Shown here piece by piece: positions 4,535-6,185 of a stretch of DNA of 45,081 nucleotides. The notes beneath the pieces were generated by a model, which was not told where the DNA came from, searched no databases, and was given only the letters and a program-made list of their open reading frames with translations. Both the position numbers and the translations under genes were made by a program. Each line of letters begins with the position of its first letter. Position 1 is the stretch's first letter. Source of the stretch: Octopus sinensis (taxonomy: Eukaryota); the NCBI RefSeq assembly GCF_006345805.1, contig NW_021834830.1, positions 1 through 45,081 of the forward strand. Reading direction: 5' to 3'.

Positions 4535-6185
4535 ATAGGCGGAAAAGTAAGAAAATAAGCGAAATGCCATTGCAAATAAAAAATAAAGGCTTTTTATGAA
4601 AAGTAATGATAGATATATACAATTAGATGAACTGAGGTAGGAATAAAAGTAATAAAAGCCATTATTGTGAATTGTTACAGAGATACAAAAGCATACCGGT
4701 TTCGTAAAATGACTAATCATTGCTTTGAATGCACACCGATTACTGAACGGTGTCAGATCTACTAGTCCGTGTGTAAAAAGTTTATGTGTAAAGGACGTAA
4801 GTAGTTCTGGATTTGGTGCAATTAGTGTAAATATAGATCTGTAATGTGGATGGTGTATATGATGAATGGGGTTAGTGGTATTAATTGAAAGGTTAGTAGT
4901 GTTCTGCATTATGTTATGTGTTCATATTGAGTTGTGGAAGATATCTATCGATGAAAGTTGCCTCTTTATTCATTCTTTCTTGTAGTGAGGTGTTCTGTGA
5001 ACATTGATAGAAGGGGAAAATTATGAAATTAGGATTAAGTTCCCTAGCACACCTTTCTATGTGTTCACTGATCTATATCTGCCTGTATTGCGGGTGGCGG
5101 GTTCTTTCTTTGTGGAGAGTGATATTCCTGTTTGGCCAATATAATTATTACCACAACCTAAGCATATAATGGCATAGATTAGATTTTCCGAGGCACAGGT
5201 GAAATTTGATTTAATCCTAAATATTTCACCTTGTTTAAAGTGGAACTCTGAACCCTCCAAAAGGTGGGGGCATGTACCACAGTTATGTCGACCACACTTT
5301 TTCATTCTTGTTCTGTTGTTAATGGATATAGTCTAGCGCAGTTTAATATTTTTTTCGATGATTTAGGTTGCATTTTGCCTTTGATAATTTTGTGTGCGCC
5401 TAAAATTTTGTACATTGTTTTATCTCCTGCGAGAATGGGTAGATTCTGGATGATAAGATTGAAGGCTTCGTTATTTCTATGAGTATGTGTGGAAATGTAT
5501 GGGAGTGCTTTTAAGTCTGGCTTAGTATTTCGGTTGACTTCCTTTAATGTTCGTATATCTATTTCCTTAGCTCGTTTAATGACATCATTTATTAATGATA
5601 TTGGGTAATGTCTTTCGATTAGTATTTATCTGAGTTCAAGGAGTCTTCGTTCACGAATATAGGTGTCCGAAACTATGGTACAGATTCTTTTCGCTGAATT
5701 ATAAGGTATATTAATTTTTATGTGTTTGGGGTGACAGGAGTTGAATAATAGGTATTGTATAGAATCTGTGGGTTTATAGAAGATGCCTGTTTCGATGTGG
5801 TTATTGACTATTTAATTAGGATGTCAAGAAAAGGGAGTTGTTTACTGCTGTGTTCCATGGTGAATTGTATGTTGCTATTAATATTGTTAAGCATTATTTT
5901 GAAATCGAGGAGTTTTTCCATGCTGTCTTTCCAAAGTATGAAGCAATCGTCCAAATACTTCTTCCAGTTCTCCTTTAAATAGCAATGAAATGAGGTGCCA
6001 TATTTTGTAGTGATGATTGATATGTTTTAAGCGCTAGGTAACCCATTACACGGTTCGCAATCACTGGAGCAGTTCGGGTTCCCATTGCAATTCCACATTT
6101 TCGTAGTTATGATGTCTATATTGGACTTCGTACATTTGTACGCCAGCGTTACCTTAATCGTATCTGCAGCACTCTCAGTAATAGT
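4535..6185 (-). mobile_element. Penelope-like retroelement, 5'-truncated and decayed (RT, Cys-rich linker, GIY-YIG endonuclease, 3' pLTR)
   Basis: Minus-strand translations: KCGIAMGTRTAPVIANRVMGYL (~6035-6100), WKKYLDDCFILW (~5930-5966), IQFTMEHSSKQLPFLDILIK, YKPTDSIQYLLFNSCHPKH, CGRHNCGTCPH and NLIYAIICLGCGNNYIGQTG (ORF 5057-5305). The Cys-rich linker is consistent with the Neptune group. Confidence 0.93.
4688..4726 (-). ncRNA. Type I hammerhead ribozyme motif, A3:U8 variant, in the 3' pLTR of the Penelope-like element
   Basis: Minus strand reads AAAGCA-AUGAUUA-GU(CAUUUU)AC-GAA-ACCGGU-A-UGCUUU: stem I 6 bp, palindromic stem III, GUA triplet, sense to the ORF; stem II is weak. Confidence 0.72.

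What the first reader, a model, noticed from the sequence alone, without database searches (positions are those of the whole stretch)
4688..4726. A3:U8 hammerhead physically linked to a Penelope RT/GIY-YIG ORF
Seen: the motif is sense to, and about 200 nt downstream of, the end of the Penelope coding remnant. It has a 6-bp stem I (AAAGCA/UGCUUU), a GUA triplet and an ACCGGU palindrome. This anchors the variant ribozyme to an autonomous-type element and supports reading the short hammerhead carriers as Penelope derivatives. Stem II has only 2 bp in this copy.
Basis: partly seen in the sequence, partly recalled or inferred. Interest (0 to 1): 0.75.

Follow-up and report, generated by a model that had tools for sequence, protein, structure and literature searches.

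The report
Flipped-core hammerheads in Penelope retrotransposons
This stretch is a worn copy of a tiny RNA motif, predicted to cut itself (a hammerhead ribozyme), at the tail of a Penelope-type jumping gene; over a thousand related motifs in this animal genome carry the core base pair turned round (mostly A-U, some G-C, instead of the textbook C-G), which standard searches would likely miss, and cutting is untested.

Summary
Confirmed and extended. The motif lies on the minus strand (4726→4688), 187 nt after the stop of a broken RT–GIY-YIG ORF with a Neptune-like zinc linker. A3:U8 is the family state (62 of 81 copies picked on flanking sequence); a subfamily carries the double change G3:C8 (7 of 81). 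Genome-wide, this architecture has 1,174 purine-3/pyrimidine-8 matches, 2,754 pyrimidine/purine (mostly U:A), 95 non-pairing, and only 4 canonical C3:G8. Sister families keep A3:U8 while rewriting stems I–III compensatorily; one adds a U after G12. The nearest outside relatives with a motif have C3:G8. Stem II is 2–3 bp, never longer. A typical copy folds best as a double hammerhead; the window's copy likely misfolds. No genomic or RNA footprint of cleavage was found. The link of hammerheads to Penelope elements is published; I did not find natural A3:U8 or G3:C8 in papers I could read, but two key papers were unavailable. This scan noted an A3-U8 Penelope hammerhead earlier in another genome (e1-9564841). 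No homologous short carrier lies in this window. New variant of a known kind; interest 0.42.

The parts
4688..4726 (-). Minimal type I hammerhead motif with A3:U8 core pair and GUA triplet; predicted cut between 4694 and 4693
   Evidence: family alignments
4714..4720 (-). Core box A3-U4-G5-A6-U7-U8-A9 (A3 = 4720, U8 = 4715)
   Evidence: A:U 62, G:C 11, G:U 2, U:C 1, A:G 1 of 77; A:U 62, G:C 7, G:U 4, other 8 of 81
4704..4713 (-). Stem II/loop II: 2 bp in this copy (A to C change at 4711); 2-3 bp in the family
   Evidence: the change creates a competing AUGAUUAGUCAU hairpin or duplex
4694..4703 (-). G12-A13-A14-A15.1, self-complementary ACCGGU (stem III, predicted to form between two molecules) and A17
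4721..4726 (-). Stem I 5' strand AAAGCA; pairs with 4693-4688; extends to 10 bp with a 1-nt bulge in a typical copy
4733..4753 (-). Hairpin ACACCG/CGGUGU just 5' of the ribozyme, kept in subfamilies A, B and C; 5' ends of short copies pile up at 4742-4729 (likely pLTR or transcript start)
4537..4913 (-). 3' UTR and pLTR; this copy ends without the optional ~45-nt 'tail' seen in many other copies
4914..6104 (-). 5'-truncated ORF remnant with stops and frameshifts: RT (GxxMG..AP..AN, YLDD), thumb, C-x4-C-x2-C linker, GIY-YIG; Neptune-like
4384..4530 (.). (TA)n microsatellite next to the element's 3' end (likely insertion target)
   Evidence: the same context at most 3' ends shown

Best explanation
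The motif is a decayed copy of a minimal type I hammerhead, predicted to self-cleave, in the pLTR of a Neptune-like Penelope retrotransposon, and it belongs to a lineage whose 3:8 core pair is flipped to purine-3/pyrimidine-8 (A:U here, G:C in a sister subfamily). Shown: the motif, its place after the ORF, its conservation, and covariation of the 3:8 pair and of stems I-III across replicating families. Inferred: element RNA would begin just upstream of the ribozyme; two ribozymes (two pLTRs or two transcripts) would pair through ACCGGU into a double hammerhead; A3:U8 would supply the Watson-Crick pair that positions the 2'-OH of residue 8 (general acid) against G12 (general base); cleavage after GUA would be slow and likely need the element's own protein, as for the anole element PAc, and would trim or unit-size a minority of transcripts, while most new insertions are copied from uncut RNA. 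The window's own copy is likely inactive because its stem II change favours a misfold.
For: Family state. Genome-wide for NUGANNAG-N4-9-CGAAACCGGUH: Y3/R8 2,754, R3/Y8 1,174, R/R 59, Y/Y 36; reversed-pattern controls 2, 5, 1, 1; C3:G8 only 4. Separate families keep A3:U8 with different, still paired stems: family B AAACG/CGUUU (3' strand CGUUU in 26 of 29, though not in the search pattern) with ACCAUGGU-type palindromes; family D AUAUC/GAUAU, UGUC/GACA, UGCC/GGCA. Protein tree: A/B/C with D form one R3:Y8 clade (support 84), sister to a Y3:R8 clade (96). The three nearest outside relatives with a motif (L338, L341, L344) have C3:G8, two of them with the same 2-bp stem II and CCGG. For a typical copy (L005) the minimum-energy dimer is the double hammerhead, -21.7 kcal/mol. 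Literature: minimal hammerheads in pLTRs, dimer requirement and low activity (PMC4209133); C3G/G8C double mutant partly restores cleavage of a Penelope hammerhead and cleavage needs the protein (PMC11167929); catalytic roles of G12 and the 2'-OH of residue 8 (PMC6155905).
Against: No cleavage data. No footprint: of 93 copies picked on the 3' flank, 1 starts at the cut site and 14 start 3-16 nt upstream of stem I; of 21 loci with the ORF's 5' part, 1 (L221) starts at the cut site, with 2 nt of TA ambiguity. Match counts are not independent events; they reflect perhaps eight lineages. Of the 7 single sequences co-folded, only L005 gave the double hammerhead exactly; L326 came close; the window copy, L108, L145, L274 and L294 gave other folds. 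The 85-nt window strand folds no better than shuffles (z 0.40). Family B has an extra U between G12 and A13 that could impair catalysis. In PAc, ribozyme mutants did not impair insertion in vitro (PMC11167929).
Confidence: 0.75

Rival explanations
1. The hammerhead fold is kept for a non-cutting role (protein-binding or dimerisation element at the 5' end of the element's RNA); the 3:8 pair is held for shape, and cleavage is negligible in cells.
For: No pile-up of copy ends at the cut site; solo pLTRs carry the intact ribozyme. PAc ribozyme mutants insert normally in vitro and no RNA-seq ends were seen at its cut site (PMC11167929). Very short stem II and the U insertion in family B.
Against: U4, G5, A6, A9, G12, the A's of GAAA, U16.1 and a non-G N17 are all kept while the stems are rewritten; N17 varies among A, C and U, as the NUH cleavage rule allows (my patterns excluded G17, but those did not).
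Confidence: 0.2
2. A3 is held because A3-U4-G5 is the element's start codon, or GUAUGC is held as a splice donor, rather than for ribozyme reasons.
For: AUG sits about 22 nt after the inferred RNA start; PAc's ORF starts inside its hammerhead (PMC11167929); CG|GUAUGC resembles a 5' splice site and the tail ends in a pyrimidine tract with UAG.
Against: The long ORF begins at an AUG after the tail; the A3 frame stops after 11 codons in most copies (read) and is out of frame with the ORF if spliced at those sites; G3 subfamilies replicated; U8 covaries with A3, which a codon does not explain; families B and D lack GUAUGC.
Confidence: 0.04
3. A3 and U8 are chance or private mutations in a dead copy.
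For: The copy is 10-12% diverged from the 40 other matches' best hits and its ORF is broken.
Against: A3:U8 in 62 of 81 flank-selected copies, 98 of 100 listed family B matches and 94 of 100 listed R3/Y8 matches.
Confidence: 0.01

Closest known systems
Minimal type I hammerheads of metazoan Penelope-like elements (Cervera and De la Pena 2014, PMC4209133; seen: main text parts 1-2 of 4, search passages of supplement file 2; file 1 not searchable)
   Same: Type I order, place in the pLTR, palindromic vestigial stem III, predicted dimer, many solo copies, G10.1-C11.1 pair
   Different: Core is A3:U8 or G3:C8, where that paper reports CUGANGA and one U3-A8 variant; stem II is 2-3 bp rather than long; no extra nucleotide after A9
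PAc (Poseidon, Anolis) hammerhead (Frangieh et al. 2024, PMC11167929; seen: passages)
   Same: Hammerhead in the pLTR ahead of the optional tail; AT-rich targets; no sign that cut RNA is the main template; engineered G3:C8 partly active
   Different: PAc is C3:G8 by nature and its ORF starts inside the ribozyme; here the flipped pair is natural, the element is Neptune-like and the ORF starts about 250 nt downstream
Natural core variants of hammerheads (Perreault et al. 2011, PMC3088659; seen: passages)
   Same: Covariation at 3:8 (U3-A8), 2-bp stem II, a U insertion in the GAAA box (U13a)
   Different: The passages give only pyrimidine-3/purine-8 covariation, called rare; here purine-3/pyrimidine-8 has over 1,000 matches, and family B's U lies between G12 and A13
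Small dimeric hammerheads of Penelope-like elements (Lunse, Weinberg, Breaker, RNA Biol 14:1499; not held; known only from its citation in PMC6765202)
   Same: Short palindromic stem III, cleavage as dimers
   Different: Could not check whether it lists A3:U8 or G3:C8 cores

Membership tests
Minimal type I hammerhead (PLE type) | Order stem I 5' - core box - stem II - GAAA - palindrome - NUH - stem I 3' | tested here: met
Minimal type I hammerhead (PLE type) | Literal consensus C3 and G8 | tested here: not met
   A3:U8 in the window; C3:G8 in 0 of 77 and 0 of 81. Hence filed as a variant
Minimal type I hammerhead (PLE type) | Watson-Crick pair between positions 3 and 8 | tested here: met
   A:U/G:C covariation; 3,928 of 4,023 genome matches are Y/R or R/Y
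Minimal type I hammerhead (PLE type) | U4 G5 A6 A9 G12 A13 A14 A15.1 U16.1 H17 conserved | tested here: met
   Window copy has all; majority in each column; family B keeps them with one extra U
Minimal type I hammerhead (PLE type) | Covariation in stems I, II, III | tested here: met
   Between families A, B, C, D, U; counted by inspection, no formal covariation statistic
Minimal type I hammerhead (PLE type) | Double-hammerhead dimer is a stable fold | tested here: inconclusive
   Minimum-energy dimer for L005, near for L326, not for the other 5 of 7 including the window copy
Minimal type I hammerhead (PLE type) | Self-cleavage after N17 | not testable with these tools
   Indirect footprint absent: 1 of 93 and 1 of 21 copies start at the site
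EN+ Penelope-like element | Single ORF with RT and C-terminal GIY-YIG | tested here: met
   weak Pfam hits below cut-off for other copies (RVT_1 E 0.04, GIY-YIG E 0.0075) and none for the window's two fragments; full-length homologues carry PF00078 and PF01541
EN+ Penelope-like element | pLTR from partial tandems, inverted truncated partners, optional tail | tested here: met
Neptune clade | CX2-5CxxC zinc-finger-like linker before GIY-YIG, Neptune-length spacer, (TA)n targets | tested here: met
   C-x4-C-x2-C linker compared by eye with the EN alignment of PMC8557442's supplement, which fits the Neptune rows better than the shorter Nematis rows; (TA)n flanks
Neptune clade | Grouping with reference Neptune RTs in a tree | not tested
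   No named reference Neptune sequences were among the stored proteins; trees hold unnamed relatives only

The most novel reading that the evidence does not exclude
A whole retrotransposon clade runs active hammerheads with the 3:8 core pair inverted. Replicating lineages in one genome use C:G, U·G, U:A, A:U and G:C (with G·U copies between the last two), and one has added a U after the general base G12. This is a natural mutational scan of the active site, perhaps allowed by the element's protein acting as chaperone. CUGANGA-based searches see 4 of 4,023 motifs of this architecture here, so hammerheads in animal retroelements are likely much undercounted.
Probability: 0.55. Interest if true: 0.58.

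Novelty: new variant of a known kind. Interest (0 to 1): 0.42.

Why it matters
The C3-G8 pair is a hallmark of the active hammerhead fold, and natural change there is described as rare and limited to U3-A8 in the papers I could read. More than a thousand genomic motifs with the opposite polarity, in several families with different stems, give evolutionary support that pairing, not base identity, is what matters. They also give a ready panel (A:U, G:C, G·U, U:A, U·G, extra U after G12) to test how Penelope proteins assist weak ribozymes. Search descriptors need N3:N8 pairing instead of CUGANGA; statements that some Penelope families lack hammerheads may need rechecking.

Tried and rejected
Rfam scan of the window: no hammerhead among the 150 of 288 matches shown, which were microsatellite-driven miRNA hits. 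Pfam on the window's two ORF fragments: 0 families. Start-codon and splice-donor ideas: not supported. Cut-site footprint in copy ends: not found. Sequencing runs: no RNA holder listed; contigs of 4 of the 24 listed runs laid on L085 showed no joint at the supposed intron and cannot show RNA ends; not used as evidence. Order of G:C and A:U inside the flipped clade: unresolved. The DNA tree (47 of 198 candidate motifs kept for having enough coding sequence upstream) and copy ages put G:C first; the protein trees put A:U at the base. MAFFT did not align the stems of the 13 diverse motifs, so no formal pair count was run. The antisense control on the 81 outside loci gave 6 hits against 22 sense hits; 2 of the 6 are inverted copies of real motifs. 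Papers not held: PMC5785218, PMC1986816, PMC4447102, PMC4008931. Earlier scan notes on permuted hammerheads in this genome concern a different motif.

Full report
OBSERVATION. On the minus strand, 4726→4688 reads AAAGCA AUGAUUA GU-CAUUUU-AC GAAA CCG GUA UGCUUU: stem I of 6 bp, a core box with A3 and U8, a 2-bp stem II, GAAA, the palindrome ACCGGU and a GUA triplet. It is the only match of my descriptor in the window; 30 shuffles gave 0.17 loose and 0 strict matches per shuffle. The motif starts 187 nt after the stop codon (4916-4914) of a broken ORF on the same strand, with RT motifs, a C-x4-C-x2-C linker and GIY-YIG. A family protein (L265) finds 122 longer homologues, mostly carrying RT, thumb or GIY-YIG Pfam domains; the few named by animal species are bivalves. 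The linker fits the Neptune rows of the published EN alignment by eye (PMC8557442 supplement).

FAMILY A (the window's family). A DNA search scored 40 of 1,662 candidates at 86-90% identity. A pattern with positions 3, 7 and 8 free gave 77 matches (control 0): A:U 62, G:C 11, G·U 2, U:C 1, A:G 1, C:G 0. To avoid selecting on the ribozyme I searched a 25-nt stretch of 3' flank (187 matches, 100 listed) and used the copies in loci L061-L090 and L111-L167: 93 copies, 81 spanning the motif, with A:U 62, G:C 7, G·U 4 and 8 others or gaps. Stem II is 3 bp in some sub-lineages (GUA…UAC) and 2 bp in the largest (GU-AAAUUC-AC, 18 of 81); the window's C variant occurs in 3 of 81. Copies are 5'-truncated, lie next to (TA)n, often have an inverted partner, and many end in an optional ~45-nt tail that the window copy lacks. 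In near-complete copies the tail runs on into the ORF, whose AUG lies after it. So the ribozyme sits near the 5' end of the pLTR.

RELATED FAMILIES. Subfamily C has G3:C8 with a changed stem I. Family B (167 matches, control 0; A3:U8 in 98 of 100 listed) has stem I AAACG/CGUUU, stem II GC/GC, longer palindromes (ACCAUGGU and variants), GUC or GUU triplets, and an extra U between G12 and A13. Family D, also Penelope-linked (tblastn hits upstream in 8 of the 20 loci fetched; 43-62% identity to the family B protein), has A3:U8 with stem I variants AUAUC/GAUAU, UGUC/GACA and UGCC/GGCA. Genome-wide counts for NUGANNAG-N4-9-CGAAACCGGUH are Y/R 2,754 (88 U:A and 12 U·G in the 100 listed), R/Y 1,174 (94 A:U, 3 G:C, 3 A:C in the 100 listed), R/R 59 and Y/Y 36, with C3:G8 only 4. 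These counts cover this architecture only; hammerheads with a shorter palindrome and an extra base after A9 were not counted, and two canonical-type ones appear in this window. They count copies, not independent events.

HISTORY. In a protein tree of 26 loci, A/B/C and D form one purine-3/pyrimidine-8 clade (support 84), sister to a pyrimidine-3/purine-8 clade (96) that holds the U:A and the rare C:G/U·G families. Among 81 outside loci, 22 sense-strand motifs were found: C:G 17, U:A 2, U·G 1, G:C 1 (L403), A:U 1 (L406); two loci contribute or repeat near-identical motifs. The nearest with a motif are C:G; L403 and L406 are distant. The simplest reading is ancestral C:G, one flip in this genome's lineage, and rare independent flips elsewhere. 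Median divergence from each group's own majority: C 0.085, G:C A' 0.054, A sub-lineages 0.048-0.058, B 0.039, one U:A family 0.023. Whether G:C or A:U came first in the flipped clade is unresolved. Either way, A3:U8 lineages kept transposing while their stems were rewritten.

FOLDING. For a typical copy (L005) the minimum-energy dimer is the double hammerhead (-21.7 kcal/mol). L326 is close to it. The other five of seven sequences, including the window copy, prefer other folds; in the window copy AUGAUUAGUCAU forms a competing hairpin or duplex.

FOOTPRINT OF CLEAVAGE. Of 93 flank-selected copies, 14 begin within 14 nt just upstream of stem I (window 4742-4729), against 28 in a 350-nt stretch further 5'; 1 begins at the cut site. 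TA microhomology with the target inflates some ends. One near-complete copy (L218/L221) starts exactly at the cut site; it is 1 of 21 examined. The pile-up likely marks the RNA start, and the main template looks uncut, as reported for PAc (PMC11167929). RNA data were uninformative.

MECHANISM. Shown: motif, position, conservation and covariation. From the literature: G12 as base and the 2'-OH of residue 8 as acid (PMC6155905 passages); dimer requirement and low rates (PMC4209133); protein-assisted cleavage and partial rescue by G3:C8 (PMC11167929); activity of engineered 3:8 exchanges in vitro (as cited in PMC3088659). Inferred: slow cleavage by the A3:U8 ribozyme as a dimer, likely helped by the element's protein, processing a minority of transcripts. 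That an A3:U8 pair was among the exchanges tested by Przybilski and Hammann is my recall; the paper was not held.

PRIOR ART. The Penelope-hammerhead link and U3-A8 are published. Natural A3:U8 or G3:C8 was not found in searches, nor in the passages read. Seen: PMC4209133 (parts 1-2 of 4; supplement file 2 passages, file 1 not searchable); PMC8557442 (introduction, passages, supplement search and part 54 of 59); PMC11167929, PMC3088659, PMC3884650, PMC6765202, PMC6155905, PMC10085705 (passages); bioRxiv 10.64898/2026.07.22.740005 (part 1 of 5; supplements closed). Lunse et al. and three structural or biochemical papers were not held; they and unread supplementary alignments may already hold such variants. 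An earlier, unchecked note of this scan reports A3-U8 in a Penelope family of another genome (e1-9564841).

VERDICT. A real, selected hammerhead variant in a Neptune-like Penelope clade; the window's copy is a worn member. New variant of a known kind; interest 0.42.

Noticed in passing
L247-L276 (family B; e.g. L274 near 1500, +): Younger sister family whose hammerhead has an extra U between G12 and A13 (GUAAA), A3:U8, a 2-bp stem II and 8-10-nt palindromes; 167 genome matches. L225 looks intermediate between A and B.
   Followed up: partly
L422-L440 (family D): Larger A3:U8 Penelope family with GUC triplet and several compensatory stem I versions; L439 holds three copies about 545 nt apart, like a non-LTR retrozyme array.
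   Followed up: partly
L307-L336: About 2,750 matches of U3:A8 or U3·G8 minimal hammerheads in related Penelope families, including the youngest group measured.
   Followed up: partly
L317, L418-L421: The rare C3:G8 / U3·G8 family shows no obvious stem I next to the core.
   Followed up: no
L406:1964-2005 and L403:1488-1530: Independent A3:U8 and G3:C8 hammerheads with 5-6-bp stem II after distant Penelope ORFs in metagenome contigs.
   Followed up: partly
window 4733-4753 (-): Hairpin ACACCG/CGGUGU just upstream of the ribozyme, kept across subfamilies A, B and C with changing loops; short copies start in or just after it.
   Followed up: partly
window about 1519-1553 (-) and 11697-11723 (+): Two decayed canonical-type minimal hammerhead-like motifs (C3/G8, GAAA-CG-U) in short repeats without DNA similarity to this element.
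   Followed up: no
window 22500-23200, 25720-25950, 26500-26740, 31290-31780, 39640-40150: A dispersed repeat family with direct and inverted partner copies, 75-90% alike; not examined.
   Followed up: no
L177: A second, more distant Penelope family (about 42% protein identity, 446-aa open stretch) inserted inside a copy of this element.
   Followed up: no
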